A program made the position numbers and the translations under genes. Of a stretch of DNA of 64,000 bases, positions 37,808-56,127 are shown one piece after another. Source of the DNA: Escherichia coli (lineage in GTDB: Bacteria > Pseudomonadota > Gammaproteobacteria > Enterobacterales > Enterobacteriaceae); assembly GCF_003019035.1 (NCBI RefSeq), contig NZ_CP027447.1, one strand, 5' to 3'. Position 1 is the first letter of the stretch. Every line of letters begins with the position of its first letter. Under the pieces are notes generated by a model. It made no database searches, was not told the DNA's origin, and was given only the letters and a program-made list of their open reading frames with translations.

Positions 37808-38146
37808 TTAGCGTGGCGTTTTGCTACTAATCACCCCAATAAAATCCTGCACCTGCTTTTGTTTACGCGCCGACAGCTTGCACACCTGGCGCAGCGACAG
37901 CATCAGTTCGCTCTCTTCGGCGGCGGGTGGTTGGGCGGTGAGGACAATACAGCCTTCCATCACTTTGACATCTACCGCCGTGCCGGTGGCAAAACCGGCG
38001 GTTTCCAGCCACTGACCTTTCAGGGTGATGGCGGGAATACGGCTGTAATCCGGGTAGCGACTCGCATAACTCACGGTTAATTGACGGTTATTTGCCGGGG
38101 AGACTTCTGCTTCGAACGGTTGTGCAATAGAATGCGTGTCAGTCAT
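37808..38146 (-). CDS. symE: SOS-induced toxin SymE (type I toxin-antitoxin toxin, AbrB-fold)
   Basis: 112 aa, [52 protein letters not shown]... matches E. coli SymE; lies at the distal end of the hsd cluster as in K-12. Confidence 0.85.
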
Positions 38147-38216
38147 GATTACTATTCCTTAGAAATAGGGATTGTGATTAGCGGTGCGGGTGTGTTGGCG
38201 CACATCCGCACCGCGC
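38140..38216 (+). ncRNA. symR: Putative SymR antisense sRNA (antitoxin RNA for symE)
   Basis: Assigned by position only: in K-12 SymR is transcribed antisense across the symE start and 5' UTR. A TAGAAT -10-like hexamer lies just upstream inside symE on the + strand, and a 9-bp-stem hairpin (GCGGTGCGG ... CCGCACCGC) occupies the predicted 3' part. Ends are approximate. Confidence 0.4.
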
Positions 38217-38223
38217 TAAATAC

Positions 38224-38239
38224 CTGGATATATCATCAG
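38224..38239. promoter_or_regulatory. Candidate LexA box (SOS box) in the symE promoter region
   Basis: CTGGATATATCATCAG fits CTG-N10-CAG with an A/T-rich spacer, about 80 nt upstream of the symE start; consistent with the known SOS control of symE. Confidence 0.5.
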
Positions 38240-38360
38240 TAAATATGGGGAAAGTCCAGCTAAAAATAGAAAATAATAAAAGCGTTACTGGAAAGATCTG
38301 GAAGAGAAATTAACGTTAATTCAGAATGGCCGGATAACAAAGTGTATCCGGCCTTCATAA

Positions 38361-41300
38361 TTAGTTTAAAACACTCATATGATGTTCTTTAAAATTCTCT
38401 GCCTGTGCCAGCACTCCCATATAAACATCATCATTCGCTACTGGCGGGAACTTATGCTTGTGTAGAAGAAGAATAAGTTCAACTTTTAGTTTCGCTTTAA
38501 TATCATCGCGCTTACTCCAGTCAGGATATTTCGATGTGTTGTCAACCACGCTTTTCATCTCTTTTGCCAGTGACAGCATTTTTTCATCGTCATAGGTGAA
38601 CTGATATTTATCGCGCATATGAGCAAGAATGTCGAAAAACGCTTTTTCTTCAATATCAATACCTAAATCGGCCCATGTGCCCATTTCGGTTTTAATATCA
38701 TAGATAATATCGGTCATTTCCTGACTGAATGTATCGAATTCTTCACCGTTGAGTACATCATCTTCTCGCCGCTCATTATAACGATCTATAATCGCCTGGA
38801 AGCGGCGGGTGAAGTTAATCCCTTGCAACTGGTTCACTTTCTTGAAGTCGCTGATCGCTTTTTCCAGTAATTTTTGTAATAACTGGATCTTTGTTGCCGG
38901 AAGTTTGATCTTGTTAATTCGCGCCAGATAATCTTCGTCAAAAATATCGATGGATTCCGCTTTTTTATCGCCAAGAAAATAAATTTCTTCTACGCCATCA
39001 GCTTTTAGCGCTTCTGCAATCATTTCACGAACGCGTGCATTCATCTGGGTGACATCCGGTGCGTCACCTTTCGTCAGTTTGAAAACAATTGAACGAACAG
39101 CAAGATAATAGTGAATATGATCACGTTCTGTCTGTGATAGTGCTTCACTGCCGCAGCAGACGTCGTAGGCGGCTTTCATGCGTTTAACCAGTCCCATAAA
39201 ACGACGTTCAACTTTCTGGGTACGCAGAACAAATTCCGCCGCGCGGTTGAGGCAGGATAATTGCGCTTGTGGCTCACCACTAAAATAATCCCGACTGTCA
39301 AATTCGTAAAAGACTTGCCCCAACAAATCGAGATGGTTTTTAACTTCTATTACCGATTGCTGAATATCTTCAAAGTTGGTGGCATCAATGCGGGAATACA
39401 TTGCCAGTGCCTGGTTCATCTGACTTTTAATGCCGATGTAGTCCACCACTAACCCTTTACTTTTGCCTTCCAGTTTACGGTTAACGCGAGAAATGGTCTG
39501 GATAAGATTATGTTTTTGTAAGGGTTTATCAATATAGATGGTATCCAGTTCCGGGACGTCGAAACCAGTCAGCCACATATCAACAACAATGGCAATTTTG
39601 AAATTCGATTTAGCGTTTTTGAACTGCTTATCCAGCTCTTTACGATATTCTTTTGTGCCCAGTAAATCATAAAGCGCCTCGTCGTCATCTTTACCGCGCG
39701 TCATGACCATCTTCACCATTTCTGAAGGCGGTAACTCTTTCTGCTCCTGTTCCGTCAGGACGACGCCATCGGGGGCTTGCTTCACTTCAAACCAGGTAGG
39801 GCGAATAGCTTTAAGCTGGCGGTAGAAATCCCAGGCAATTTCACGGCTGGCACAAACAAACATGGCTTTGCCTTTTACGGTGGAACCTTCGGCTACGCGT
39901 TTTTCATAATGTTTAGCAAAATCTTCCGCGAGGGCTTTTAACCGATCTTCATCACCCAGTACCGCATTCATGGTTGCGGTGGCTTTTTTGCTTTCGTCGA
40001 TTTGCCACTCATTGGTGCCTGCGTTTGCGCACTCTTCGTAATACTTTTCGACTTCTTCCAGTTTGCTGGAGTCCAGGATCACTTTAGCCGCACGGCCTTC
40101 GTACACGATGCGTACAGTGATTTCATCCTGAACGGATTCGGTCATGGTGTAACTGTCGATCACCTCACCGAAGACATCGAGCGTCGCGTCAATCGGTGTG
40201 CCGGTAAAGCCAACATAGGTGGCGTTTGGCAGTGAATCGTGCAGGTATTTCGCAAAGCCATAAGTTTTGCGCACTTTTCCGCTTTCTTTATCGACGATGA
40301 CTTTCTGGTCGAGGTTAACCTGGCTGCGATGTGCTTCGTCTGAGATGCAAATGATATTGCTGCGTTCAGAAAGGAGTTCGGTGTCTTCGGTGAATTTATG
40401 GATCGTTGTCAGGAATACACCGCCACTATTGCGTCCCGCCAGTTGATTACGCAAATCTTCACGGCTGATAACAGGAACGATGGTGTCGTCGCCAATGTAA
40501 TTTTTGGCGTTGCACATTTGCGCAGAAAGCTGATCGTCCAGATCGGTGCGGTCGGTGATCAAAACAATGGTCGGGCTGGCAAACTCCACGCTCTTCATCA
40601 AAAGACGCGTTAAAAATTGCATGGTGTAACTTTTGCCACAGCCCGTTGCGCCAAAGTAGGTGCCGCCTTTACCGTTACCGAAAGGTTTACGCGCTTGCTT
40701 GATGCTGTAATAGAGTTTGCGGGCGGCATAGTACTGCGGATATCGGCAGCAAATTTTTACTTCGTGCTTAGCTTTATCCGGGAAGCAGATAAAGTTTTTA
40801 ATCACATCCAGCAGACGTACCGGATGAAACAGCCCCTGAATCATTGAGTGCAATGACGGAATTCCGTCCTGTTCACGGTTTTCATTACCGGTGACTTTGC
40901 GCCATGAGTAAAAATATTCATAGGGCGCAAACAGGTTGCCCATCCGGTTATTAACGCCATCGCTAATAATGCAGAGCGCGTTGTAGATAAACAGTTGCGG
41001 AATATCCCGGCGGTAGCGTTTACAGAGCTGCTTCCAGGCATCACCTATACTGGCTTCCTGCTCGCGCACCGCGCTTTTAAATTCAAAGACGACCAATGGC
41101 AGACCATTGATATAGAGAATGCCGTCAGGAATACGAGTCTGATTATCTTTGCCGGAGATTTTAAGCTGGTTAACAATCTTAATCCGGTTAAGCGGCGGAT
41201 TAATATAGGAGGGCGGGAGTTCTGCCGCCTGTTGCAACGGGACATCTTCGGCGTCAAATATCTGGCGCAGTGCGGCAGGTAGATGCCGGGTGTCGAGCAA

Positions 41301-41624
41301 TTCAATATAGAGATCTTTTTGTTGCCGATCGTCGCGTTTGAACAGAAAACCATTTGCCAGCCAGCGACAAAATGTTTTGTTGCTTTCATAAAGATCGGAG
41401 GCCGGAAGCGTGGTGAACTGTTTGATCAGTCGCTGAATCTCTTCTTCAGTAATGCCATCAGGCTGGTAGCGTGCCGCTAAATAATGACGGAGATCGTCTT
41501 CGATAATGACCTGATCGAGACTTGAACGAGGGACATTATCGCCGATCAGGTGTTGATATCCCTGATCCTGTAATAGTTCAATGATCGCTTGTTCTAATTT
41601 TGCTTCACTGAAAGAGAGACTCAT
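38361..41624 (-). CDS. hsdR: Type I restriction enzyme R subunit (HsdR), not EcoKI-type
   Basis: About 1087 aa; conserved nuclease motif (VVFEFKS), DEAD/DEAH helicase Walker A (GATGCGKSYTM) and helicase motifs. Start set at the ATG (MSLSFSEAK...) preceded by GGAG; the track ORF begins at an upstream TTG. The sequence and length differ from K-12 EcoKI HsdR. Confidence 0.88.
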   Translation of the reverse strand: MSLSFSEAKLEQAIIELLQDQGYQHLIGDNVPRSSLDQVIIEDDLRHYLAARYQPDGITEEEIQRLIKQFTTLPASDLYESNKTFCRWLANGFLFKRDDRQQKDLYIELLDTRHLPAALRQIFDAEDVPLQQAAELPPSYINPPLNRIKIVNQLKISGKDNQTRIPDGILYINGLPLVVFEFKSAVREQEASIGDAWKQLCKRYRRDIPQLFIYNALCIISDGVNNRMGNLFAPYEYFYSWRKVTGNENREQDGIPSLHSMIQGLFHPVRLLDVIKNFICFPDKAKHEVKICCRYPQYYAARKLYYSIKQARKPFGNGKGGTYFGATGCGKSYTMQFLTRLLMKSVEFASPTIVLITDRTDLDDQLSAQMCNAKNYIGDDTIVPVISREDLRNQLAGRNSGGVFLTTIHKFTEDTELLSERSNIICISDEAHRSQVNLDQKVIVDKESGKVRKTYGFAKYLHDSLPNATYVGFTGTPIDATLDVFGEVIDSYTMTESVQDEITVRIVYEGRAAKVILDSSKLEEVEKYYEECANAGTNEWQIDESKKATATMNAVLGDEDRLKALAEDFAKHYEKRVAEGSTVKGKAMFVCASREIAWDFYRQLKAIRPTWFEVKQAPDGVVLTEQEQKELPPSEMVKMVMTRGKDDDEALYDLLGTKEYRKELDKQFKNAKSNFKIAIVVDMWLTGFDVPELDTIYIDKPLQKHNLIQTISRVNRKLEGKSKGLVVDYIGIKSQMNQALAMYSRIDATNFEDIQQSVIEVKNHLDLLGQVFYEFDSRDYFSGEPQAQLSCLNRAAEFVLRTQKVERRFMGLVKRMKAAYDVCCGSEALSQTERDHIHYYLAVRSIVFKLTKGDAPDVTQMNARVREMIAEALKADGVEEIYFLGDKKAESIDIFDEDYLARINKIKLPATKIQLLQKLLEKAISDFKKVNQLQGINFTRRFQAIIDRYNERREDDVLNGEEFDTFSQEMTDIIYDIKTEMGTWADLGIDIEEKAFFDILAHMRDKYQFTYDDEKMLSLAKEMKSVVDNTSKYPDWSKRDDIKAKLKVELILLLHKHKFPPVANDDVYMGVLAQAENFKEHHMSVLN

Positions 41625-41690
41625 ATCGCGCTCCAACCCTGGCTAATTTCTGGTAAGCATTCCCGTATCAGTAGAAAACCTTACCAGAAA

Positions 41691-41710
41691 GCCCCTGATT
41701 TTACAGGGGC
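41691..41710 (-). terminator. Hairpin immediately downstream of hsdS (possible attenuator/terminator before hsdR)
   Basis: 7-bp perfect stem GCCCCTG/CAGGGGC with a 6-nt loop, about 8 nt after the hsdS stop, followed by T-rich sequence on the minus strand; an adjacent 10-bp inverted repeat (TTCTGGTAAG ... CTTACCAGAA) lies in the hsdR leader. Confidence 0.35.
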
Positions 41711-41718
41711 AAAATGCG

Positions 41719-43113
41719 TTATGCAGTTTCTGTATCGGTGTTGAGATCCGGAAGATCTTCCCGGGATAGCTCACCGGAGATGAGTTTCGGGAGCAGGGTG
41801 TCGCGGAGGTTGCTCAGGACTATTTGATTATTATTATGTGACTTGTCAATCCAAGGCATAACGATATTATAAAAAGTATTAATTATTTCAACATCTGGCA
41901 TAACTACATGTTCAGCCTCAAGAAAATATTTTGTCTGGAAGTTAGCGATTCCTGTACTTTGGTTTTGGTATTCCCACATTTTTCCATCGTTATATATTTT
42001 ATTGAGGTGTAAACTAATTATTAGCCCTATCTCTATAGATAACGGCTCAAACTTGCGACAAAAACTAGCAGGTTCAATAATACCCCCTAATCGACTTATA
42101 ATCTGTTCAGTCATGAAAATTGAACGGCCAGTTGACTGCGTTGGACTTCCTCCTGAAACTTCTATTATAATATCACCATTATTAATTTTTCTTTTTTCGA
42201 GTTTTTTGGGTTCTACCCATCTACATGGGGCAGAACTCATTTTCCCTGAAATTAACTCCGGGATATCAGTACCGCGCACTATCACTGCTTGAATTGTATG
42301 CTTTTCATCTCTGGAATCACTCCCCCAGTCACCACCAATTGTATTTTTTAGTAAACTATTAACATTTGAAAACTTCCAACCTTTAGGAATTAAACCTAAC
42401 TCCGTTTCTTCAAATTCACTTGGGAAAAGCGAGCGGATTTCCGCCGGAAGCGGTTTAAAATCTGTACTATTACGTACTTTTTGACGCAACTCGGCACGAG
42501 ATTGCAGAGCCTCCGGGATTGGATTTCCTGCATCCAGAGCGTTATCAACCACCGGATCAAAATCCACAAACCAGGATTTGAACAGGGTTTGGGACATTTG
42601 TTCTAATGACTTATTTATTACTTCATTGGATTTTAGCTTACTAAATATAAGAGTGTTTGTTTTTGCGATATGTTGGCAATATTTATCTGGTGCAAGATTA
42701 AATTCATAATCTAATATGGCTGTTTTATCACCCCTTGGCATTTTGGTGCCTTTGGATGTTAAAACAGTATGTTCGATGAATTTTTGATCCATTAATACTG
42801 ATAGAATATAATTAGAATTAATATTTTTTTTAGGACGGAATACAATTACATCGTTAGAACAGCCACCAGTTCGATCTGCAAGCCATAGTTTTTTAAAATA
42901 TGTTCTGATATTCGAGAATAAAATATCTCCAGAATGAAATTTTGTTATTTTCCCTGTGCTAGGTTTACTATTTGCTATTGATATACCTCCAAAATTGGTA
43001 AGCATATTTTCAGTTGATATGTAATCGCAAAGACTAATTTGCGATACATCAACTTTAGTAGTGATGATATCTACAACTTCTTTAAGTTTTATTTTCTCCC
43101 ACTTACTCCCCAT
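41719..43113 (-). CDS. hsdS: Type I restriction-modification specificity subunit (HsdS), two target-recognition domains
   Basis: Start MGSKWEKIKLKEV... overlaps the last 11 nt of hsdM (ATGGGGAGTAA); AT-rich coding sequence with two variable regions separated by a conserved central segment, as in HsdS proteins. Confidence 0.85.
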   Translation of the reverse strand: MGSKWEKIKLKEVVDIITTKVDVSQISLCDYISTENMLTNFGGISIANSKPSTGKITKFHSGDILFSNIRTYFKKLWLADRTGGCSNDVIVFRPKKNINSNYILSVLMDQKFIEHTVLTSKGTKMPRGDKTAILDYEFNLAPDKYCQHIAKTNTLIFSKLKSNEVINKSLEQMSQTLFKSWFVDFDPVVDNALDAGNPIPEALQSRAELRQKVRNSTDFKPLPAEIRSLFPSEFEETELGLIPKGWKFSNVNSLLKNTIGGDWGSDSRDEKHTIQAVIVRGTDIPELISGKMSSAPCRWVEPKKLEKRKINNGDIIIEVSGGSPTQSTGRSIFMTEQIISRLGGIIEPASFCRKFEPLSIEIGLIISLHLNKIYNDGKMWEYQNQSTGIANFQTKYFLEAEHVVMPDVEIINTFYNIVMPWIDKSHNNNQIVLSNLRDTLLPKLISGELSREDLPDLNTDTETA

Positions 43114-44722
43114 AACCCAGCACCTCCAGATTCTGGCGAATCGCACGATCCAGTTCTTCCGCCTGCTTCATCTGCTCAAACAACGTCTTCGACAATTCGC
43201 GCATTTTCGTCTCAAATGCCACGCCGTCCTCTTCCTGCTCGGCTGCACCTACATAGCGGCCCGGTGTCAGAACGTAGTCGTTATCTTTAATGTCTTGCAG
43301 GGTCGCAACTTTGCAGAAGCCAGCCTGGTCTTCATATTTTTCCAGCTTGCTGTCACCACGCGCAATCCGTGCAGCCAGTTCTTCCGGCGTACTGCGCCAG
43401 GCATGGTAGGTATCGGCGATGGTGGCAATATCTTCCGTTGTTAACTCTTTAGTTGTGCGGCTAATCATGGTGCCGAGGTTACGCGCATCAATAAACAGCG
43501 TCTCGCCCTGACGATCACGATAACCTTTGGCCGGATCGGCAGCCTTCGATTTGGTCATAAACCATAAACACACCGGGATCTGCGTGGTGTAAAACAACTG
43601 ACCTGGCAGAGCGATCATGCAGTCAATCAGATCATTTTCGATCATCTGTGCACGGATCTCGCCTTCACCGCTGGTGTTAGAACTCATCGAACCGTTTGCC
43701 AGCACAAAACCTGCTGTGCCGTTAGCCGACAGCTTGGAGAGCATATGCAAAATCCAGCCGTAGTTGGCGTTACCGGTTGGCGGCATACGATACCCAGCAA
43801 AACGTGGGTCTTTGGTTAATTCGGCTTCATTACGCCAGTCTTTCAGGTTGAACGGCGGGTTCGCCAGAATGTAGTCGGCTTTCAGGTCCGGGTGCTGGTC
43901 GCTAAAGAAAGTGTTTGCCGGTCGTTCGCCGAGGTTAGCTGAAAGACCGCGAATGGCGAGGTTCATTTTTGCCAGTTTATACGTCGTGGCAGTCAGTTCC
44001 TGACCATACAGCGCGATATCACGGCTTTTACCCTGATGGCTCTCGACAAACTTCACCGACTGCACGAACATCCCCGCCGAACCGCAGCACGGGTCATAAA
44101 TTTTGCCCTGAAAGGGTTCGAGCATTTCAGTTAACAGCGTAACCACACATTTAGGCGTGTAGAACTCACCACCGCCTTTGCCTTCAGTTGCGGCAAACTT
44201 ACCGAGGAAGTATTCGTAAACGCGTCCGACCAGGTCTTCTTTCGATAACGTTTCAACGTCAGTTTCGTGTGCCAGCGTTTCGATGTTGTCGATGGTATCA
44301 ATCAGTGACGCCAGTTTTTTGGTTTCCAGATTCTGACGGCTGAAGTAGTTGTCTGGCAGCGCGCCTTTCAGGGTTGGGTTACGTTTCTCAATGGTCGAGA
44401 GGGCGGTGTCAATACGAACCGCAATATCGTCCTGTTTGGCATTTTGTTTGATAAACGACCAGCGCGCCTCTTCCGGCAGGTAGAAAATGTTGTCCTGCTG
44501 GTAGAACACTTCCATCTCAAGGAAGTCAGCTTGCCCATCGGCAATCATTTTTTTGCGGCGTGCTTCAAACTTATCGCTGATGAATTTCAGGAACACGAGG
44601 CTCAACACCACGTGCTTGTATTCGGAGGACTCAACGCTACCGCGAAGCTGGTTTGCTGTATCCCATAATGTTTCTTCAAAGCCTTTCTTTGCTTTGGCTT
44701 TTTTAGTTGGTGCTTTGGCCAT
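43103..44722 (-). CDS. hsdM: Type I restriction-modification N6-adenine DNA methyltransferase subunit (HsdM)
   Basis: 539 aa; AdoMet-binding region (YDPCCGSAGMF) and catalytic NPPF motif (LANPPFN); the N-terminus (MAKAPTKKAKAKKGFEETLW...) differs from K-12 EcoKI HsdM. Confidence 0.9.
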   Translation of the reverse strand: MAKAPTKKAKAKKGFEETLWDTANQLRGSVESSEYKHVVLSLVFLKFISDKFEARRKKMIADGQADFLEMEVFYQQDNIFYLPEEARWSFIKQNAKQDDIAVRIDTALSTIEKRNPTLKGALPDNYFSRQNLETKKLASLIDTIDNIETLAHETDVETLSKEDLVGRVYEYFLGKFAATEGKGGGEFYTPKCVVTLLTEMLEPFQGKIYDPCCGSAGMFVQSVKFVESHQGKSRDIALYGQELTATTYKLAKMNLAIRGLSANLGERPANTFFSDQHPDLKADYILANPPFNLKDWRNEAELTKDPRFAGYRMPPTGNANYGWILHMLSKLSANGTAGFVLANGSMSSNTSGEGEIRAQMIENDLIDCMIALPGQLFYTTQIPVCLWFMTKSKAADPAKGYRDRQGETLFIDARNLGTMISRTTKELTTEDIATIADTYHAWRSTPEELAARIARGDSKLEKYEDQAGFCKVATLQDIKDNDYVLTPGRYVGAAEQEEDGVAFETKMRELSKTLFEQMKQAEELDRAIRQNLEVLGYGE

Positions 44723-44785
44723 GATGAACTCTGTTCAGATAAATTGGGTCGCTATTGTAATGGTAGAGACGGCAGATTTCGCCCT

Positions 44786-45952
44786 TTAATCCATCTCCAG
44801 CTCATCAAACAACTGCAAATCTACATCCAGCAATTCCACTGCATTGCTGCGGCGAATGCCGACGTTATTTTCGATTAACAGTTCCAGTAAGCGATCGCCG
44901 TCGATAAGCGTAATGGGCGCGGCCCCCGGAAAGAGCGCCGCTTCTGCACATTTCGCTGCAAATTTCCCGGTGGTGATGAGCGTACCGCGAATGGCCTTGT
45001 GGTAAGGCAACGCTCCGCGCAACTGGTCGATATACGGTCGAGTGATGGTGTTCTGCATTCTTTTGACCTGCACCACTTCGGTAATAGTGGTGATGCCGAC
45101 CTGCACCTGACCAATCACGTCCACACCTTTATCGCCTGAGGCTTTGGTCACTTCGACCTGCTCGTAGCCCATTGCTTCCAGTAATTGACCGACCAGTTGT
45201 TCAAATTTGTACGGGTTCATCGTGCTGATTTGTTCGCGCAGCAGCTCTTTTTGCTGTTCGTTATAGCGTTTTACCGCTTCCAACAGCTCTTTACGCGGAT
45301 CGCTTTTTCGTGCAGGCAACGCTTTTCCAAGCCAGGCGCGCCCGGTATCGGTGATGCGATAGCTCATGCCTTCACGGTTAACCATGTCACGGTCGATAAG
45401 GTTATAGAGACGGGAGTAGAGCGTGCTTTTCACTGAACTTGCTGACGCGAATTTCGAATGCTGATGCAAAAAGGCCTGCCATTCCGGCAATAAATCGGCG
45501 CGGCGCGACATTTCCCGGCCAGCCAGCAGCTCAAGCAGTTGCAGAATGCCTTCCTGGTCGTCCAGTGAACGCAGCGTTTTTTCGTCATCTTGCAGGAATT
45601 TTTGCCCGCGCGAGGTGGGCTGCCAGGTATCGTCTGGCGTGCTTTCCATCAGCTCAAACTGGGGATAGTTGAGGAATAAGTAGCAGCCGTAGCTGTGGCG
45701 CGGGTTCAATATGTGATTATCGGTATCCCAAATACGACGGGCGATGTCGGCATCTTCACCCGTTAAGCGTTCGCTGATCCACAGGTCAGGTTCCGACCAG
45801 TCAACGGGTTTTTGCGGCGTTCCGGTTTGCTCGTGAATGGCAGTAATCATATTGCGCACCGCTTTCAGGGAATAGCCTGAGACGGCTTTCATCATAGCCT
45901 TAACTTGCGCATAGGTAGGAAAAAGCGGGGTAATGACTTTGTAGTTTTTCAC
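44786..45952 (-). CDS. Mrr-like restriction endonuclease family protein (extended N-terminal region + Mrr-type PD-(D/E)xK catalytic domain)
   Basis: 388 aa; C-terminal third carries Mrr-catalytic-like blocks (GDKGVDVIG ... VQVKR ... GTLITTGKF ... LIDGD); N-terminal ~240 aa have no K-12 Mrr counterpart. GTG start preceded by AGGGA; 63 bp upstream of hsdM on the same strand. Confidence 0.65.
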   Translation of the reverse strand: MKNYKVITPLFPTYAQVKAMMKAVSGYSLKAVRNMITAIHEQTGTPQKPVDWSEPDLWISERLTGEDADIARRIWDTDNHILNPRHSYGCYLFLNYPQFELMESTPDDTWQPTSRGQKFLQDDEKTLRSLDDQEGILQLLELLAGREMSRRADLLPEWQAFLHQHSKFASASSVKSTLYSRLYNLIDRDMVNREGMSYRITDTGRAWLGKALPARKSDPRKELLEAVKRYNEQQKELLREQISTMNPYKFEQLVGQLLEAMGYEQVEVTKASGDKGVDVIGQVQVGITTITEVVQVKRMQNTITRPYIDQLRGALPYHKAIRGTLITTGKFAAKCAEAALFPGAAPITLIDGDRLLELLIENNVGIRRSNAVELLDVDLQLFDELEMD

Positions 45953-46105
45953 GGTAATCCCTTAACGACAGCGAGGTGTTTAGTGTGCCATGTCAGGCGA
46001 GAAATTCTATTGGATGAATCAAGTCCAACTCACACATTGTCAATTTCATGGTTGATTATTCGAAACGTGATGCTATTTCCAACATCAACGCTATAATTGC
46101 AGAAT

Positions 46106-46135
46106 AATTGTACATACATTTTTGTATATACAATT
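46106..46135. promoter_or_regulatory. Near-perfect 13-bp-arm palindrome (candidate operator / -10 region) upstream of the brnT remnant
   Basis: AATTGTACATACA-TTTT-TGTATATACAATT, with one mismatch between arms and an internal perfect palindrome TTGTATATACAA, ending about 14 nt before the brnT ATG; typical of an autoregulated TA promoter. Confidence 0.45.
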
Positions 46136-46148
46136 AGGGATGGCAACT

Positions 46149-46277
46149 ATGCCAATGGAGTTTGAATGGGATGCAAATAAGGCCAAAGGTAATCGGGTGA
46201 AACATGGCATCCGCTTTGAAGATGCGGTGTTAGTGTTTGATGATCCACAACGAACGGAATCGCTATGAGCATGGTTA
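46149..46277 (+). pseudogene. Truncated BrnT-like (DUF497) ribonuclease toxin remnant
   Basis: Translation MPMEFEWDANKAKGNRVKHGIRFEDAVLVFDDPQRTECYEHG* has the conserved DUF497 N-terminus (FEWD..K...N..KHG..FE.A..VF.DP) but stops after 42 codons, against about 90 aa for intact BrnT toxins. Confidence 0.5.
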
Positions 46278-46567
46278 AACATAAACGAGGGACCTCCTCT
46301 ACACTCGATGTGCAGCATGAGGCCGAACTGAAGGCGCTGGCGAATAAATCCGACGAAGATATTGATTACAGTGATATCCCACCTTCCAGCGATGAGCAAT
46401 GGTCTAACGCAGAACGCGGTAAGTTTTATCGGCCATTGAAAACTCAGGCCTCGGTGCGTATTGATTCTGATGTGATGGAATGGTTGAAGCGACCAGGTAA
46501 AGGCTATCAAACTCGCCTGAACGCAATTTTACGTGAAGCGATGCTGCGCGATCAGAACAAAAAATAA
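46265..46567 (+). CDS. BrnA-like antitoxin (CopG/RHH-related, COG3514-type), apparently intact
   Basis: 100 aa; C-terminal GKFYRPLKTQASVRIDSDVMEWLKRPGKGYQTRLNAILREAMLRDQ matches the conserved BrnA antitoxin signature (GYQTRINAILR); overlaps the 3' end of the toxin remnant. Confidence 0.6.
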   Translation: MSMVKHKRGTSSTLDVQHEAELKALANKSDEDIDYSDIPPSSDEQWSNAERGKFYRPLKTQASVRIDSDVMEWLKRPGKGYQTRLNAILREAMLRDQNKK

Positions 46568-46589
46568 TTCAGGCCGCCACATGGCGGCC
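46559..46589 (-). terminator. Putative rho-independent terminator of yjiA
   Basis: Perfect 7-bp stem GGCCGCC/GGCGGCC, followed on the minus strand by TGAATTATTTTTT, just downstream of the yjiA stop. Confidence 0.5.
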
Positions 46590-46600
46590 ATCATCCAAAA

Positions 46601-47557
46601 TTACTTCCTCAACCCCGCAAACGCCGCCCGAATCTCATCCTCCGGCAGCTGAATCCCGATAAACACCATCGTGCTATGCGGTTTTTCATCGCCCCATGGC
46701 CTGTCCCAGTCGGCGCTGTAGAGGCGCTGGACACCCTGGAACAGCAGGCGATTAGGTTCGCCGTCAATCCATAGCATCCCTTTGTAACGCAGTAGTTTAT
46801 CCGCCGACTCCAGCAGCAGGTTTTCCATCACGCGGGAAACTTCGCTGATATCTACCGGGTAATCCAGTTCCACCACAATCGACGAAATATCGTTTTGTTT
46901 GTCCGCGATAAAGTGGAAACGCGGTTTGGTGCTGACGACGTTCTCTTCCAGCATAAAACCGTTGGTGTTGAACAGCAGGCCCAGGTCGATGTCGCCGTGG
47001 GTGACGGTGTAGATCGGTGCACGGGCGTTGATGCGCGCCAGGCGTTCACGCAGTTTTTCTGCTTCGCCTGCGACGTCGGTTTTAGTCAGCAGAATACGGT
47101 CGGCGTAGCCAACCTGTGACTGGGCGATGGTGAACTGGTTCATCTGCTCATCGGCATGTACCGCATCCACCAGCGCAATCACGCCGTCCAGCAGGTAACG
47201 CTGGCATAAAATCTCATGGGAGAAAAAGGTCTGAATAATCGGGCCGGGATCGGCCATGCCGGTGCATTCAATCACCAGACGGTCGAACTGAATATTGCCC
47301 TTGTCGAGATTATCCAGCAGGTCGAGTAGGGCGTCTTCCAGCTCGTTGGAGCGCGAACAGCAGATGCAGCCGTTGGTCAGCGTTTTGATCTGCGTGACGC
47401 GATCGCCAATCAGTTGATCATCAACGGAGACTTCGCCGAATTCGTTTTCAATCACGGCAATCTTGTAGCCGTGTTGTTCGTTAAGAATATGGCGCAGCAG
47501 GGTGGTTTTGCCGGCGCCTAAAAAACCGGTGAGTAGGGTAACTGCAATCGGGTTCAT
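46601..47557 (-). CDS. yjiA: CobW/P47K-family GTPase YjiA (zinc-associated G3E GTPase)
   Basis: Matches K-12 YjiA from MNPIAVTLLTGFLGAGKTTLLRHILNEQHGYKIAVIENEFGEVSVDD...; GCICC metal-binding motif; the track ORF has a 28-codon extension that is not used. Confidence 0.9.
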   Translation of the reverse strand: MNPIAVTLLTGFLGAGKTTLLRHILNEQHGYKIAVIENEFGEVSVDDQLIGDRVTQIKTLTNGCICCSRSNELEDALLDLLDNLDKGNIQFDRLVIECTGMADPGPIIQTFFSHEILCQRYLLDGVIALVDAVHADEQMNQFTIAQSQVGYADRILLTKTDVAGEAEKLRERLARINARAPIYTVTHGDIDLGLLFNTNGFMLEENVVSTKPRFHFIADKQNDISSIVVELDYPVDISEVSRVMENLLLESADKLLRYKGMLWIDGEPNRLLFQGVQRLYSADWDRPWGDEKPHSTMVFIGIQLPEDEIRAAFAGLRK

Positions 47558-49971: not shown

Positions 49972-50238
49972 AGTAAAACCTGGCATGTATTGATTAATAG
50001 TTGGCCGAAGCCGTTCTAGGTTTGCGTTGCGTTTGAGGAGGTAAATTGACCGCTATCCTGCAGTGATGTTGCCAGAGTTACGCGCGCGTAAAGTAAGGTA
50101 AATAACTGAGTGGTTATTTTAGGGATGTAAGCGGTCAGGAATGGCGGTGAGCGGTTGGGCAAGAATTATTCGTCGGGTGGATATGTGATTGAGATCACAA
50201 TAAAAATGCCCCTTCGATAATTAACCGAAGGGGCGTTC

Positions 50239-51459
50239 TTAGAAGAGAGTGTCTAATTCTGCCAGTACGTTGTAGTCGTCATCAGTCAATAACAACGTTT
50301 TCCATTTGTCGAAGGTCAGGCACGGATGCGATGTGCCAAACACCAGAATATCCCCCACTTGCACGTCGCTATTAGCTGACAGTTGCAACATGCAGTGCTG
50401 ATCCATAATACCTGTACTGCGAATCGCCTGTGGATCAAATGCCAGTGATTTGCCGTTGCGGTAGTGGGCGACTGGTTGCGGCAGTCCGGCGTCGAAGGCG
50501 CAATCACGCTTACCAAAATTTACCACCGCACGATCAGCTTCCGGCACCGATTGCACCATGGCGACCAGTTCCAGCGCAGATGTGAGATCGCCTGCCAGAT
50601 CGCAGGCCACAGGATCACGGGCAAGCAACTGTTGTTGTGCCGCGTCGTAGATCCCGGTGTCGTGAGTGATGTAGCAGCCAGGGCGAATAACAATGCGGCA
50701 GTTATCAGGCTTTTCTGCCGCCAGCCAGATATTGCACACCACGTCATACCAGACCGTGCCTGCTCCGGTGAGAATAAACTCGCCATCAACCAGACTTGCT
50801 ATATCACAGGCCAGTTGTGCGGCATCCCGCAGCAGAGCTTCTACCTGCGGTTGTGGATCGTCACCGTGTAAAACGCCTTCATATAACTCAAGCCCCCGCA
50901 GGCGTAACCCCGGTAATTGGGCTGCCTGTTTAGCCAGTGTCAGTGCGGCATCCCTTGAGCGGCAACCACAGCGCCCGCCGGGGACACCCAACTCAATCAT
51001 CACGTTCAGTGTCTGTTGCTGACTGGCAAAAAAGGCAGACAAAGCGCGGGCGTTCTCAATGCTGTCGATACAGCAGATAAAATCGACCGTCGGGTAATGT
51101 CGTTGCAACTGGGCAATCAACTGCATATTCGCCTTGCCGACCAGCTGGTTAACCATCAGCACTCGCTGAATACCGCTCGCCATTGCCGCACCAGCCTGCC
51201 ATGCGCTACCGACACCTATTGCCCAGGCACCAGCCGCCTGCTGCGCCTGAAAAATCCACGGCGTCATGGTGGTTTTACCGTGCGGTGCCAGTGAAACGCC
51301 GCGCGCGTCAGCGTAGCGTTGCATCCACGTAATGTTGTTCTCCAGGGCCTGCTTTTTAATGATCGCGGCAGGTAAACAGACATCTTCGGCAAGGAGATTT
51401 GCGGGCATTTGCATCAGGGCAGATTTATGGGGAACCAGAGGTTCTGAGTGGTATTTCAT
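50239..51459 (-). CDS. PLP-dependent D-serine-dehydratase-like / D-threonine-aldolase-family enzyme (alanine-racemase N-terminal fold)
   Basis: 406 aa; PLP-lysine context LAPHGKTT near the N-terminus and a C-terminal beta-domain, typical of the DSD1-like family; divergent from the D-aminoacylase gene. Confidence 0.65.
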   Translation of the reverse strand: MKYHSEPLVPHKSALMQMPANLLAEDVCLPAAIIKKQALENNITWMQRYADARGVSLAPHGKTTMTPWIFQAQQAAGAWAIGVGSAWQAGAAMASGIQRVLMVNQLVGKANMQLIAQLQRHYPTVDFICCIDSIENARALSAFFASQQQTLNVMIELGVPGGRCGCRSRDAALTLAKQAAQLPGLRLRGLELYEGVLHGDDPQPQVEALLRDAAQLACDIASLVDGEFILTGAGTVWYDVVCNIWLAAEKPDNCRIVIRPGCYITHDTGIYDAAQQQLLARDPVACDLAGDLTSALELVAMVQSVPEADRAVVNFGKRDCAFDAGLPQPVAHYRNGKSLAFDPQAIRSTGIMDQHCMLQLSANSDVQVGDILVFGTSHPCLTFDKWKTLLLTDDDYNVLAELDTLF

Positions 51460-51659
51460 AACATTTACCTTTTAAGTTTTTCACCGTATCGGATGTGAGT
51501 ATCATTTGTAACTAAATGAAATATAAATATTTAGTTTATTTATCTTATTATTTATGAATAAAAGTATCATAAAATCATCTGGGTTTTGCGTAGTTTTCCA
51601 CTGTTTTTCGTCCTTGTAAATGGTTAACTTGTCACCATTGCAGAAATGGAGTGACGAAC

Positions 51660-53102
51660 ATGCAGGTTGACTGGTTAATCAAAAATGTGACCGTTATCGA
51701 CGGTAGCGGCGGCCCTGAATTTCGCGGTGACGTGGCAATAACAGGTGATCGGATTGTCGATATTGCCCCTGCGCTTAACGTTACGGCGCAGCAGGTCATT
51801 GACGGGGAAGGGCGGGTGCTGGCACCAGGGTTTATCGACGTTCATACCCATGACGATATCAACGTTATTCGCATCCCGGAATATCTGCCAAAGATCAGCC
51901 AGGGGATCACTACGGTGATTGTCGGTAACTGCGGGATTAGTGCGGCGTCGGCGAAAATGAAAGGTGAAGTTCCTGACCCGATGAATCTGTTGGGGGAAGC
52001 AGAGCACTTTATTTATCCTACCGTTGAAAGCTATGCCCAGGCAGTGGAAGCAGCCAGGCCGTCACTGAACGTTGGCACGCTGATTGGTCATACGGCGCTG
52101 CGTAATAACCATATGGACGACCTGTTTCGCCCGGCGACGGTGGATGAAATTGCCGCTATGCGTGCCGACTTACGTCTGGCGTTGAGTCAGGGGGCGCTGG
52201 GGTTAAGTTCCGGGCTGGCCTATGCAACGGCATTTCAGGCGACTACCGAAGAAGTCATGGCGCTGGCGGAAGAATTAGCCGGTGAGAAGGGCGTTTATAC
52301 CACCCATCTGCGTTCTGAATTTGAACCGATTCTCGATGCCCTGGATGAGGCGTTTCGTATTGGGCGTCATGGCAAAGTGCCTGTCGTGGTTTCCCACCAT
52401 AAATGCGCCGGGGCGAAAAACTGGGGGCGGACAAAAGAAACGTTGGCCTTTTTTGACCAAATGCGTCAACACCAGGAAATTGGCTGCGATGTCTACCCTT
52501 ACTCGGCCAGTTCTTCAACGCTGGATCTCAAACAAGTCACCGACGAATTCGATATTGTGATCACCTGGTCACAAACACATCCGCAGCAGGCCGGGAAAAC
52601 ACTGGCACAAATCGCCATCGACTGGCAGATGAGTATGCTGGAGGCCGCGAAGTTGCTGATGCCTGCCGGGGCTATCTATTACAACATGGACGAGCGCGAC
52701 GTCCGCAGAGTGTTGAGTTATCCGGTCAGTATGATTGGCTCTGACGGACTGCCCAATGATCCCATGCCGCATCCGCGTTTATGGGGCGCTTTCCCTCGCG
52801 TGCTGGGTCACTATTGCCGTGATGAAGGCTTATTCCCACTGACCACGGCTATCCACAAAATGACCGGGCTTTCTGCCAGCCGTTTTCGTCTGCCTCAGCG
52901 TGGGCTGGTGAAAGTCGGCTATTTTGCGGACCTGGTGTTGTTCGATCCACAAACCATTCGTGATGTTGCCAGCTTTTCTGATCCCAAACGCCCGGCAGAT
53001 GGCATTGAGGCGGTGATGGTGAACGGCGTTATGAGCTATGGTCGCGATAAACACATTACAGGCCGTGCGGGACGCTTCCTGCGCCGCCAGACCTCACATT
53101 AA
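51660..53102 (+). CDS. N-acyl-D-amino-acid deacylase (D-aminoacylase, amidohydrolase superfamily)
   Basis: Colinear with characterised D-aminoacylases: PGFIDVHTHDD, ISQGITTVIVGNCGIS, VVSHHKCAGAKNWGRTKETL, MIGSDGLPNDPMPHPRLWGAFPRVLGHY, GYFADLVLFDP. Start set at the ATG at 51660 (GGAG upstream); the track ORF begins at a GTG three codons earlier. Confidence 0.78.
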   Translation: MQVDWLIKNVTVIDGSGGPEFRGDVAITGDRIVDIAPALNVTAQQVIDGEGRVLAPGFIDVHTHDDINVIRIPEYLPKISQGITTVIVGNCGISAASAKMKGEVPDPMNLLGEAEHFIYPTVESYAQAVEAARPSLNVGTLIGHTALRNNHMDDLFRPATVDEIAAMRADLRLALSQGALGLSSGLAYATAFQATTEEVMALAEELAGEKGVYTTHLRSEFEPILDALDEAFRIGRHGKVPVVVSHHKCAGAKNWGRTKETLAFFDQMRQHQEIGCDVYPYSASSSTLDLKQVTDEFDIVITWSQTHPQQAGKTLAQIAIDWQMSMLEAAKLLMPAGAIYYNMDERDVRRVLSYPVSMIGSDGLPNDPMPHPRLWGAFPRVLGHYCRDEGLFPLTTAIHKMTGLSASRFRLPQRGLVKVGYFADLVLFDPQTIRDVASFSDPKRPADGIEAVMVNGVMSYGRDKHITGRAGRFLRRQTSH

Positions 53103-53111
53103 GGAGTGAAT

Positions 53112-53501
53112 ATGAGTATTAAACGTTACGGTACGGAAGGTGGAACAGGCACTGGCGGGCAGCATTTGCCGTTTGCCAGGGCGGTTGAGGCGGGCGGCTG
53201 GCTGTACGTCTCCGGGCAAACCCCCATGAAAAACGGTGAAGTGGTAGAAGGCGGTATCGTTGAACAGTCACGACTGGCGATCCAAAACTGTGTCGACATC
53301 ATGACTGAAGCCGGTTATAGCCTGGCGGATGTGGTTCACGTGAAAGTGATCCTGACCGACGCCCGCTATTTCCAGTCATTTAATAAAGTATTCAGAGAAT
53401 TTTTTGGCGAGAATCCGCCTGCACGTATTTGTTGTGTAGCTGATCTGGTTGTCGATTGTAAAGTTGAAGTCGATGTGACCTGTTATAACGCGACCCGCTA
53501 A
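53112..53501 (+). CDS. RidA/YjgF-family reactive-intermediate deaminase
   Basis: About 129 aa with typical RidA features (AGGWLYVSGQ, C-terminal VEVD); start at the ATG preceded by AAGGAG; begins 10 nt after the deacylase stop. Confidence 0.72.
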   Translation: MSIKRYGTEGGTGTGGQHLPFARAVEAGGWLYVSGQTPMKNGEVVEGGIVEQSRLAIQNCVDIMTEAGYSLADVVHVKVILTDARYFQSFNKVFREFFGENPPARICCVADLVVDCKVEVDVTCYNATR

Positions 53502-53603
53502 TAAATTTAAGAATTAAAAAAATAGACCGCAATTGAGTGCTGAATACATTCAGCACTCCGGGAACTCTTACTTTATTCTCTCTCTACTGGCAGGATGTGA
53601 ATT

Positions 53604-55073
53604 ATGAACAGTCATATCTTTTTAGTCGGCTTTATTATTTATGCCATCGCCATGATTTGGCTTGGTTGGTTTGTGTCTCGTAATCAGAAAAGCGGAGAAG
53701 ATTTTCTGCTGGGCGGGCGTTCGTTGCCGCTGTTTCTGACGCTGGGCTCAACCGTTGCCACGATGGTTGGCACGGGTTCCAGTATGGGCGCCGTGGGCTT
53801 TGGCTACAGCAATGGCTGGGCCGGAATGCTTTATGGCGTCGGTGGGGCCGTAGGTATATTACTGGTGGCGTGGCTGTTTGCACCGGTACGTAAATTACGT
53901 TTTATGACCATGAGTGAAGAAATATCTTATTATACTGGCGGGAGTCATTTAATTAAAAATATTGTCGGCCTGATGATATTTATTGCCTCTATTGGCTGGC
54001 TGGGGGCGCATATATTAGGTGGCAGTATGTATCTTGCCTGGGCAACAGGTATTGATCTTACTGTAGCAAAATTAATTATCGCCTTAGCTTTTGCGATTTA
54101 CGTTATTATCGGCGGTTATTCGGCGGTAGTGTGGACAGACACCATTCAGGCCTTAATTCTGTTCTTTGGCTTTATATTGATGGCTATTCTCGCCGTTGTT
54201 CACGTTGGCGGCTGGAGTGCGATTGAACAGGCGATGGACCCAAAAGCGATGAGCCTGTTTGCGATTGATAAAATGGGCGTTCTACCTGCGCTTTCGCTGG
54301 CGCTGGTTATTGGTGTCGGCGTACTGGCCACACCGTCTTATCGCCAGCGTATTTACTCGGGTAAAGATGTTCCCTCTGTACGCCGTTCGTTTGTTATTAC
54401 TGGGGTGTTATATCTGTTCTTCTCGATTTTGCCTGCCATTATCGGCATGGCGGCGTTCACCATGAACCCAAATCTGGAAAACAGCAACTACGCCTTCTTG
54501 TTCGCGACCAGTTTCTTACCTGCCATTCTTGGGCTGGTGGTGCTGATTGCCGGGCTTTCAGCCACCATGTCTTCTGCCAGCTCCGATGCCATCGCGGCGG
54601 TGGCGATTATGATGCGCGACGTCTACACCATGATTACCGGCAGAATGCCGCCGGAGGACAAGGCCATTACTTACTCACGCTGGATGTTGACCTTTGTTAT
54701 TGGCCTGGCGCTGGTCTTTGCTCTGACCTCTAATGACATCATCAGCTACATTACCAAAATGATTTCGATGCTGATGTCCGGGCTGTTTATCTGCTCGATT
54801 CTCGGTCGCTTCTGGCTACGCTTTAACTGGCAGGGCGCGCTGGCGGCGTTAGTGAGCGGTATGGTGATGTCAATTGTGGTGCTGATGAATGCCGACTGGC
54901 TGGCTTACTGGGGTAACCCGTGTATTCCGTCAGTGCTGGGCAGCCTGGTCGCTGGCGTACTGGTGACGTTGGTAACGCCAGCAAGTCAGGTCAGCCGGGA
55001 AGAAGCTTTGGCTATTATCACCAATGAGCGTGAAAACCAGAGTGTCGTGATCACCAAACCTGAAGAAGCATAA
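53604..55073 (+). CDS. Sodium:solute symporter (SSS) family transporter
   Basis: 489-aa polytopic membrane protein with an SSS-like N-terminal region (GGRSLPLFLTLGSTVATMVGTGSSMG); co-oriented with the deacylase and RidA genes. Confidence 0.72.
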   Translation: MNSHIFLVGFIIYAIAMIWLGWFVSRNQKSGEDFLLGGRSLPLFLTLGSTVATMVGTGSSMGAVGFGYSNGWAGMLYGVGGAVGILLVAWLFAPVRKLRFMTMSEEISYYTGGSHLIKNIVGLMIFIASIGWLGAHILGGSMYLAWATGIDLTVAKLIIALAFAIYVIIGGYSAVVWTDTIQALILFFGFILMAILAVVHVGGWSAIEQAMDPKAMSLFAIDKMGVLPALSLALVIGVGVLATPSYRQRIYSGKDVPSVRRSFVITGVLYLFFSILPAIIGMAAFTMNPNLENSNYAFLFATSFLPAILGLVVLIAGLSATMSSASSDAIAAVAIMMRDVYTMITGRMPPEDKAITYSRWMLTFVIGLALVFALTSNDIISYITKMISMLMSGLFICSILGRFWLRFNWQGALAALVSGMVMSIVVLMNADWLAYWGNPCIPSVLGSLVAGVLVTLVTPASQVSREEALAIITNERENQSVVITKPEEA

Positions 55074-55082
55074 CCGACAATG

Positions 55083-55988: not shown

Positions 55989-56127
55989 AAACTGCCGCTA
56001 TAGAGTGTGACCCTCACAAAAAACGCAAGTTTGCTGCAACAAAAGCAGTGCCGACGCTTTTCCACAGCATAAAGTTTTCCACCACCAGGCCGACAACCAG
56101 TGTATCTGTCTAGTGGAAAGAGAAACC

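What the first reader, a model, noticed from the sequence alone, without database searches (positions are those of the whole stretch)
38361..45952. Alternative immigration-control-region allele: non-EcoKI type I R-M (hsdM-hsdS overlapping, then hsdR) with mcrBC and K-12-type mrr absent
The hsd genes sit at the K-12 hsd position (between symE and yjiA), but HsdR, HsdM and HsdS differ in sequence and length from EcoKI, so this is a different type I family and specificity. hsdS overlaps hsdM by 11 nt. A hairpin and an inverted repeat lie between hsdS and hsdR, suggesting partly independent hsdR expression. The mcrBC, yjiT, yjiV and mrr genes of K-12 are missing; an Mrr-like gene and a TA remnant are present instead. 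This hypervariable locus is a known hotspot for defence-gene exchange. Which type I family this allele belongs to cannot be decided by eye.
Basis: partly seen in the sequence, partly recalled or inferred. Interest (0 to 1): 0.5.

Follow-up and report, generated by a model that had tools for sequence, protein, structure and literature searches.

The report
Type ID restriction-modification cassette, E. coli
This is an intact, already described kind of E. coli DNA-defence cassette (a type ID restriction-modification system with a neighbouring Mrr-family nuclease) sitting where K-12 has EcoKI; it is ordinary, except that its DNA-recognition subunit carries a rare, uncharacterised combination of recognition domains.

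Summary
On the minus strand lie hsdM (43103-44722), hsdS (41719-43113, 11-nt overlap with hsdM) and hsdR (38361-41624), between symE/symR and yjiA. An Mrr-like nuclease gene (44786-45952) and a truncated brnT plus intact brnA replace K-12 mrr. K-12 yjiT, yjiV and mcrBC are absent.

The family question is settled: this is type ID (StySBLI/EcoR9I/KpnAI family). HsdR and HsdM are 99.4% identical to EcoMII of E. coli EC958. EcoMII is a proven enzyme whose HsdR is reported as 92% identical to StySBLI. Identity to EcoKI (IA) and to the CFT073 EcoAI-type enzyme (IB) is only 22-27%.

All catalytic motifs are intact and there are no frameshifts. About 788 of 5,426 complete E. coli genomes carry the cassette. 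All four proteins already exist as exact sequences in public databases.

Only hsdS is unusual. TRD1 occurs in 56 genomes, TRD2 in 4, and the two together in 1. The recognition sequence is unassigned; a spacing of 6 bp between methylated adenines is inferred.

Two abutting perfect hairpins between hsdS and hsdR are real and conserved across Enterobacterales type ID systems, but they show no covariation and their function is untested.

Verdict: a known kind at a known hotspot; low interest.

The parts
38361..41624 (-). hsdR, restriction/translocase subunit (1087 aa from the ATG at 41624; the mechanical ORF extends to a TTG at 41636)
   Evidence: TIGR00348 HsdR at 3.8e-139 and PADLOC REase_I at E=0. 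Pfam domains HSDR_N, SWI2_SNF2, T1R_D3-like and T1RH-like_C. 99.4% identical over all 1087 aa to EC958 EcoMII HsdR. The PD...EFK nuclease motif, GATGCGKS, DEAH and QTISRVNR motifs can be read directly in the translation.
38328..38353 (-). Hairpin just after the hsdR stop codon (GGCCGGATA...TATCCGGCC); probable end of the operon transcript
   Evidence: Sequence read. Folds at -18 kcal/mol, z = -5.9. Function is inferred.
41647..41690 (-). Intergenic hairpin 2: 11-bp perfect arms (TTTCTGGTAAG / CTTACCAGAAA) around a 22-nt loop with an inner 5-bp stem
   Evidence: -17.7 kcal/mol, z = -5.5. The arms are conserved in 9 Enterobacterales type ID loci while the loop varies.
41691..41710 (-). Intergenic hairpin 1: GC-rich 7-bp stem and 6-nt loop, 8 nt after the hsdS stop, followed by UUUCU; resembles a weak terminator
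   Evidence: -13.7 kcal/mol, z = -4.2. The stem is invariant in 9 loci apart from one G-C to G-U change.
41719..43113 (-). hsdS, specificity subunit (464 aa). By codon arithmetic from the alignment: TRD1 42640-43113, central conserved region 42373-42639, TRD2 41908-42372, C-terminal conserved region 41719-41907. The direct DNA comparison with EC958 puts the divergent stretches at 42607-43098 and 41813-42373.
   Evidence: PADLOC Specificity_I at 1.4e-135; Pfam Methylase_S. Against EcoMII HsdS, only aa 159-247 (83%, ungapped) and the C-terminus align. TRD1 DNA is in 56 of 5426 genomes, TRD2 in 4, and both only in SCU-301.
43103..44722 (-). hsdM, N6-adenine methyltransferase subunit (539 aa); its last 11 nt overlap the hsdS start
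   Evidence: PADLOC MTase_I at 8e-193. Pfam HsdM_N plus N6_Mtase. 99.4% identical to EcoMII HsdM. The DPCCGSAG and NPPF motifs can be read in the translation.
44786..45952 (-). Mrr-family nuclease gene (388 aa), co-oriented with hsdM and 63 nt upstream of it. N-terminal half contains winged-helix-like folds; C-terminal Mrr_cat PD-QxK nuclease.
46149..46250 (+). brnT toxin remnant (internal deletion of about 160 bp)
   Evidence: Alignment with EC958. Annotated as a partial BrnT pseudogene in SCU-301.
46265..46567 (+). brnA antitoxin gene, intact (100 aa)
   Evidence: 97% identical to EC958 BrnA; annotated as BrnA in SCU-301 and EC958.
37808..38146 (-). symE, the conserved left anchor of the cassette
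   Evidence: NCBIfam NF010128 at 1.4e-65. 92.7% identical to SymE of K-12 and of CFT073.
38141..38217 (+). symR antisense antitoxin RNA
   Evidence: Rfam RF01809, 93.1 bits, E 1.2e-17.
46601..47557 (-). yjiA, the conserved right anchor
   Evidence: NF008578 at 3.4e-205. 98.4% identical to K-12 YjiA. DNA homology to K-12 resumes at 46601.

Best explanation
This is the type ID allele of the E. coli immigration control region. It is an intact hsdM-hsdS-hsdR type I restriction-modification system of the StySBLI/EcoR9I/KpnAI/EcoMII family, preceded by an Mrr-family, probably modification-dependent (type IV), nuclease gene.

Mechanism, from established knowledge of type I enzymes:
- An M2S1 complex methylates one adenine on each strand of a bipartite target chosen by the two recognition domains of HsdS.
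- When the R2M2S1 complex meets an unmethylated target, HsdR hydrolyses ATP, reels in DNA and cuts it far from the site.

For this allele the target is unknown, because both recognition domains differ from those of EcoMII. The central spacer of HsdS has the same length as in EcoMII, so the two methylated adenines should be 6 bp apart, as in the rest of the family (inferred).

The Mrr-like protein most likely acts on its own against modified DNA that escapes the type I enzyme (inferred).

The two hairpins between hsdS and hsdR most likely lower or time hsdR expression relative to hsdM and hsdS, by partial termination or by shaping the mRNA (inferred, not shown).
For: Family assignment:
- HsdR is 99.4% and HsdM 99.4% identical to EC958 EcoMII, with the same gene order and flanks.
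- Knock-out of EcoMII abolished AAC(N4)CTTT methylation, and its HsdR is reported as 92% identical to StySBLI HsdR (PMC4659465).
- K. pneumoniae ATCC 13883 carries a homologue at 91% (HsdR) and 94% (HsdM) identity.
- Type ID is one of the three families found at this locus, in 12% of 9,040 enterobacterial genomes (PMC12707154).

Not the other families:
- 22-27% identity to EcoKI and to the CFT073 EcoAI-type enzyme.
- Only partial matches to EcoR124.

Intactness:
- Lengths are identical to the functional EcoMII proteins and the catalytic motifs are present.

Spacing:
- The 89-aa central region aligns without gaps to EcoMII HsdS.
- The family hallmark is D = 6 bp.

Mrr-like protein:
- Mrr_cat domain with D...QxK invariant in 36 homologues.
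- The fold matches AspBHI and MspJI nucleases plus winged helices.
- It stands alone in 3 of 10 sampled contexts elsewhere.

Hairpins.
Against: - No StySBLI, EcoR9I or KpnAI sequence could be compared directly, so the link to the founder enzyme rests on a published figure.
- No methylome or restriction assay exists for this hsdS allele.
- The hairpins show no compensatory changes: 17 of 23 pairs never vary, and one pair is broken in 4 of 9 sequences.
- Hairpin 1 is followed by only three U residues.
- No significant hsdR promoter was found.
- No activity has been shown for any member of this Mrr-like family. Searches for its protein accessions and its PADLOC candidate label in papers turned up only defence-system surveys.
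Confidence: 0.93

Rival explanations
1. The Mrr-like protein is not an independent type IV enzyme. Instead it is a functional partner of the type I system, for example a back-up nuclease released when the type I complex is inhibited by phage anti-restriction proteins, as PrrC is with EcoprrI.
For: - It is co-oriented with hsdM and only 63 nt upstream of it.
- The pairing is conserved in Escherichia, Enterobacter, Pluralibacter and Klebsiella.
- Relatives at 52-80% identity lie within one gene of type I systems of other families in 6 of 10 sampled contexts, once between hsdR and hsdM, and once next to BREX.
Against: - It stands alone in 3 of 10 contexts.
- It has decayed to remnants in Citrobacter and Superficieibacter while hsdMSR stays intact.
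- It is absent from more distant type ID systems such as Pragia, Tolumonas and Vibrio.
- Clustering of type IV with type I genes is the norm in defence islands (PMC12707154).
Confidence: 0.1
2. The cassette is a silent or decayed remnant that no longer restricts or modifies.
For: - The neighbouring brnT is truncated, which shows that decay occurs at this locus.
- No expression data are available for this strain.
Against: - All four ORFs are full length and the same length as in EC958, where the system methylates over 99% of its sites.
- Catalytic motifs are intact.
- There are no frameshifts or internal stops.
Confidence: 0.04
3. The two intergenic inverted repeats act at the DNA level, as a protein-binding operator or recombination site, rather than as RNA hairpins. 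Alternatively, they have no function.
For: - The arms are almost invariant, so conservation could be of sequence rather than of pairing.
- There is no covariation, and the shuffle control is not exceeded.
Against: - Both single-sided stem changes seen (Pragia in hairpin 1, K. pneumoniae in hairpin 2) give G-U pairs on the mRNA-sense strand; on the other strand they would be A-C mismatches.
- The inner stem uses U-G pairs.
- Loops vary freely while stems do not.
- Hairpin 1 sits 8 nt after a stop codon, the usual place for an RNA 3' structure.
Confidence: 0.25

Closest known systems
EcoMII of E. coli ST131 strain EC958 (EC958_0076-0079; recognises AAC(N4)CTTT)
   Same: Same locus, gene order and flanks: yjiR-yjiS-symE-hsdR-hsdS-hsdM-Mrr-like-brnTA-yjiA. 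HsdR is 99.4%, HsdM 99.4% and the Mrr-like protein 98.7% identical. The 94-nt hsdS-hsdR spacer lies within a 12.3-kb stretch that is colinear with EC958 at 97.1%.
   Different: Both recognition domains of HsdS differ (464 aa against 434 aa; only the central 89 aa and the C-terminus align), so the target sequence must differ. brnT is truncated here.
StySBLI / EcoR9I / KpnAI (founder type ID enzymes)
   Same: Same family by the published 92% identity of EcoMII HsdR to StySBLI HsdR. A K. pneumoniae homologue is 91-94% identical. All are alleles at the enteric immigration control region.
   Different: Their targets are CGA(N6)TACC, AGCA(N6)TGA and GGCA(N6)TTC.
EcoKI (type IA, K-12) and the EcoAI-type enzyme of CFT073 (type IB)
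   Same: Same chromosomal slot between symE and yjiA, the same three-subunit logic, and each is accompanied by a type IV gene (mrr in K-12, DUF262/GmrSD in CFT073).
   Different: Their gene order is hsdR-hsdM-hsdS, with hsdS next to symE. Protein identity is only 22-27%. Their HsdR is 1170 or 810 aa against 1087 aa here.
EcoKMrr (K-12 Mrr)
   Same: C-terminal Mrr_cat PD-QxK nuclease domain (30.6% identical over 173 aa) and a winged-helix type N-terminal DNA-binding part.
   Different: 388 aa against 304 aa. The N-terminal 240 residues match no Pfam family (no Mrr_N hit) and the model shows a larger helical and winged-helix region. The gene is co-oriented with hsdM rather than divergent from hsdR. 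No activity is known.

Membership tests
Type ID restriction-modification (StySBLI family) | High sequence identity of HsdM and HsdR to family members, low identity to other families | tested here: met
   99.4% identical to EcoMII HsdR and HsdM. EcoMII HsdR is reported as 92% identical to StySBLI HsdR (PMC4659465). 22-27% identical to the IA and IB enzymes. The link to the founder enzyme is indirect.
Type ID restriction-modification (StySBLI family) | Subunit exchange or complementation with family members; antibody cross-reaction | not testable with these tools
   These are the defining tests for type I families (PMC3874165; PMC12707154). They need genetics and protein work.
Type ID restriction-modification (StySBLI family) | 6 bp between the two methylated adenines of the target | not testable with these tools
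   Family hallmark per Table 1 of PMC12707154. Supported only indirectly: the HsdS central region aligns to EcoMII HsdS over 89 aa without gaps.
Type ID restriction-modification (StySBLI family) | Gene order hsdM-hsdS-hsdR at the enteric immigration control region | tested here: met
   The order is seen in the window, in EC958 and in 48 related loci with both genes on one strand. The position between symE and yjiA is confirmed.
Type IA (EcoKI family) | Near-identity of HsdM and HsdR to EcoKI | tested here: not met
   HsdR 24.7% over 219 aa; HsdM 24.5% over 396 aa.
Type IB (EcoAI family) | High identity to EcoAI-type HsdM and HsdR; EcoEI_R_C domain in HsdR | tested here: not met
   HsdR 22.4% over 223 aa and HsdM 26.8% over 362 aa against CFT073. 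The HsdR C-terminus is T1RH-like_C, not EcoEI_R_C.
Type IC (EcoR124 family) | High identity to EcoR124 HsdM and HsdR | tested here: not met
   Only partial, weak matches: HsdR E about 1e-23 over residues 148-514, HsdM E 1.2e-38. There is no EcoR124_C domain.
Mrr family type IV restriction enzyme | Mrr_cat PD-(D/E/Q)xK nuclease domain with catalytic residues | tested here: met
Mrr family type IV restriction enzyme | Cleavage dependent on modified DNA | not testable with these tools
   No experimental report was found for this subfamily.

The most novel reading that the evidence does not exclude
Two readings remain open.

1. The 388-aa Mrr-like family, which accompanies type I systems of at least four families and also BREX, could be a dedicated companion that senses failure or inhibition of methylation-based immunity, rather than an ordinary modification-dependent nuclease.

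2. The conserved double hairpin between hsdS and hsdR could be a specific RNA device that delays HsdR synthesis when the cassette enters a new host.
Probability: 0.1. Interest if true: 0.55.

Novelty: already known. Interest (0 to 1): 0.15.

Why it matters
The result mainly allows correct annotation. The strain carries a type ID system, not EcoKI. It lacks McrBC and K-12 Mrr, so it will restrict unmodified incoming DNA at an as yet unknown bipartite site. That matters for transforming or conjugating DNA into this lineage and for phage host range.

The rare pairing of recognition domains is a textbook case of new specificities arising by domain shuffling.

Two side observations could be followed up cheaply: the Mrr-like family that repeatedly sits beside methylation-based defence systems, and the conserved double hairpin before hsdR. 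Neither is established as new biology here.

Tried and rejected
- **Founder papers.** I tried to read the founding type ID paper (PMC60208), Murray's review (PMC98998) and Sibley and Raleigh (PMC373321). None is held. The link to StySBLI therefore rests on Forde et al..
- **Recognition sequence.** I tried to assign it. HsdS has no informative match in solved structures; the only hit is 7vru_C at 3.8e-8 over TRD1. Its recognition domains match neither EcoKI, EcoMII nor the CFT073 HsdS. REBASE is not available, so the target is left unassigned.
- **Named RNA family.** I looked for one at the intergenic hairpins. Rfam found only symR.
- **Covariation.** I tested the hairpins on 9 loci. There is none, because the stems hardly vary.
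- **Dispersed repeat.** I checked whether the 94-nt spacer is one. It is single copy, present in 861 genomes, always chromosomal and unannotated.
- **hsdR promoter.** Promoter-like hits are at the chance level.
- **Phase variation.** I found no simple repeats or tandem arrays that would suggest it.
- **Rejected families.** Type IA, IB and IC membership are rejected.
- **Literature on the proteins.** I searched papers for the protein accessions and for PDC-S02. Only defence-system surveys turned up, with no functional work.

Full report
**1. What is there**

Between yjiR/yjiS/symE and yjiA, the minus strand carries four large intact ORFs:
- a 388-aa gene at 44786-45952;
- hsdM at 43103-44722 (539 aa);
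- hsdS at 41719-43113 (464 aa);
- hsdR at 38361-41624 (1087 aa from the ATG; the mechanical ORF starts 12 nt earlier at a TTG).

NCBIfam and PADLOC models call them HsdR (TIGR00348, 3.8e-139; REase_I, E=0), a type I methyltransferase (8e-193) and a specificity subunit (1.4e-135). The fourth protein matches PADLOC candidate PDC-S02 (2e-207) and type IV restriction enzyme models. Pfam domains:
- HsdR: HSDR_N, SWI2_SNF2, T1R_D3-like and T1RH-like_C.
- HsdM: HsdM_N and N6_Mtase.
- HsdS: Methylase_S.
- The fourth protein: Mrr_cat only, at residues 243-359.

The nuclease (PD...EFK), helicase (GATGCGKS, DEAH, QTISRVNR) and methyltransferase (DPCCGSAG, NPPF) motifs can be read in the translations.

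**2. Position and what is missing**

Alignment of the window with K-12 shows:
- Homology runs through yjiN-mdtM-rpn-yjiR-yjiS up to window 37771.
- It resumes at 37829-38277 (symE plus symR; symR is confirmed by Rfam at 93 bits).
- It is lost from 38278 to 46600 and resumes at yjiA (46601).

K-12 has 7.6 kb (yjiT, yjiV, mcrC, mcrB) where the window has about 57 bp. K-12 hsdS-hsdM-hsdR-mrr is replaced by an 8.3-kb cassette: hsdR, hsdS, hsdM, the Mrr-like gene, a brnT remnant and brnA. brnT has lost about 160 bp relative to EC958; brnA is intact.

**3. Which family**

- Against EcoKI (type IA): HsdR 24.7% over 219 aa, HsdM 24.5% over 396 aa, HsdS no real match.
- Against the EcoAI-type enzyme of CFT073 (type IB): HsdR 22.4% over 223 aa, HsdM 26.8% over 362 aa.
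- Against EcoR124 (type IC): only weak partial matches in the structure database.
- Against the ICR of E. coli ST131 strain EC958: the same gene order and flanks, with HsdR 99.4%, HsdM 99.4% and the Mrr-like protein 98.7% identical.

Forde et al. (PMC4659465) named the EC958 system EcoMII. They showed by knock-out and SMRT sequencing that it methylates AAC(N4)CTTT. They reported its HsdR as 92% identical to StySBLI, the founder of type ID, and noted the adjacent Mrr gene.

A 2025 review (PMC12707154) lists types IA, IB and ID as the three families at this locus (14%, 11% and 12% of 9,040 enterobacterial genomes). Each is accompanied by its own type IV genes and by brnAT, symE/symR and rpn.

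A K. pneumoniae type strain carries a homologue at 91% (HsdR) and 94% (HsdM) identity. KpnAI, another founder member, is also from Klebsiella.

The allele is therefore type ID. The caveat is that I could not align StySBLI itself.

**4. How common**

- Megablast finds part of the 7.6-kb region in 1,141 of 5,426 complete E. coli genomes, and at least 80% of it in 788.
- The exact sequences of all four proteins are already in public collections: HsdR on 100 contigs, HsdM on 199, HsdS on 68 and the Mrr-like protein on at least 1,000.
- A scan of one genome per species found HsdR relatives from 99% down to 51% identity. They occur in Gammaproteobacteria, Campylobacterota, Bacteroidota, Spirochaetes and candidate phyla, with hsdM upstream on the same strand wherever both were captured.
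- In about half of those loci, extra genes (Fic/Doc-like, ABC-type and QatA-like ATPases, and unknowns) sit between hsdS and hsdR. That junction is therefore a modular boundary across the family.

**5. The specificity subunit**

Against EcoMII HsdS, only the central region (aa 159-247; 83% identical, 89 aa, no gaps) and the C-terminus align. Both recognition domains are different, so the target is not AAC(N4)CTTT.

TRD1 DNA occurs in 56 of 5,426 genomes, TRD2 in 4, and the combination only in SCU-301. This is the classic domain reassortment of type I enzymes.

Families are marked by the distance between the methylated adenines, which is 6 bp for type ID. EcoMII fits that spacing. The equal length of the central region suggests the same spacing here (inference). 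The half-sites cannot be assigned with the tools available.

**6. The hairpins**

The 94-nt hsdS-hsdR spacer holds two abutting perfect inverted repeats.
- Hairpin 1 is GCCCCUG-6 nt-CAGGGGC. It starts 8 nt after the hsdS stop and folds at -13.7 kcal/mol.
- Hairpin 2 is UUUCUGGUAAG-22 nt-CUUACCAGAAA, with an inner stem, and folds at -17.7 kcal/mol.
- A GGAG and the hsdR ATG follow.

The element is single copy, present in 861 genomes and unannotated. It matches no Rfam family.

It is conserved in nine Enterobacterales type ID loci, including Pragia (HsdR 84%). It is absent from Tolumonas, Vibrio, Shewanella and Marinomonas relatives.

Stems are nearly invariant while loops vary. 94.7% of cells pair, against 32-66% when the partners are slid. 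However, 17 of 23 pairs never vary, one pair is broken in 4 of 9 sequences, and the shuffle control is not exceeded. The two single-sided changes both give G-U pairs on the mRNA-sense strand, a weak hint that the structure acts in RNA.

Hairpin 1 is flagged as terminator-like but has a poor U tract. No convincing hsdR promoter appears.

My reading is that this is a leaky terminator or mRNA-shaping element that sets HsdR below HsdM and HsdS.

**7. The Mrr-like gene**

- It shares only its C-terminal nuclease domain with EcoKMrr (30.6% over 173 aa).
- More than 900 homologues exist, full length down to about 50% identity, and all are named merely 'restriction endonuclease'.
- D274, D278, E292, Q295 and K297 are invariant.

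Within the type ID family, the gene is linked to hsdM only in Enterobacteriaceae. It has decayed in Citrobacter and Superficieibacter while hsdMSR stays intact.

Ten contexts of more distant homologues were sampled:
- Six lie within one gene of a type I system of other families, once between hsdR and hsdM.
- One lies next to BREX.
- Three stand alone.

That pattern fits an autonomous nuclease that travels with methylation-based systems. The same protein (97-99% identical) coexists with many different hsdS alleles. It therefore cannot be attacking the m6A marks these enzymes make; this is an inference.

**8. Verdict**

The open question has a clear answer: type ID, EcoMII-like. The cassette is intact, common and published. 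Only the pairing of recognition domains is rare, and its target unknown. Interest is low.

Noticed in passing
window 19395-24635 (-): A 1746-aa inverse autotransporter adhesin (NCBIfam IatC N-terminal model at E=0; intimin-like) lies between kptA and yjiJ. These two genes are adjacent in EC958 and CFT073.
   Followed up: partly
window 27200-29173 (-): An AT-rich (about 36% GC) 657-aa pentapeptide-repeat protein with weak similarity to type III effectors PipB2 and SopA is inserted between yjiK and yjiL. It is absent at this spot in EC958 and CFT073.
   Followed up: partly
window 50155-56067: About 5.9 kb between btsT and tsr has no counterpart in K-12, CFT073 or EC958. It encodes an amino acid deaminase, an N-acyl-D-amino-acid deacylase, a RidA protein and a sodium:solute symporter, as annotated in SCU-301.
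   Followed up: no
window 46149-46567 (+): brnT has lost about 160 bp while brnA is intact, leaving an antitoxin without its toxin. The shared promoter region with its palindrome (TGTACATACATTTTTGTATATACA) is kept.
   Followed up: partly
L083, L085, L087, L090, L091, L096, L089 (homologues of window 44786-45952): The 388-aa Mrr-like family sits beside type I systems of several other families (HsdR with EcoEI_R_C, EcoR124_C or T1RH-like_C ends), once between hsdR and hsdM, and once beside BREX. It stands alone in three other contexts.
   Followed up: partly
L011-L079 (type ID-like loci in other phyla): In about half of the related loci, 1-5 kb of extra genes lie between hsdS and hsdR. They include Fic/Doc-like proteins, ABC-type and QatA-like ATPases, and several proteins with no family match.
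   Followed up: partly
window 38328-38353 (-): A strong hairpin (GGCCGGATA...TATCCGGCC, -18 kcal/mol) lies directly after the hsdR stop. About 110 nt beyond it on the facing strand is the symR gene, so hsdR transcription runs towards symE/symR.
   Followed up: no
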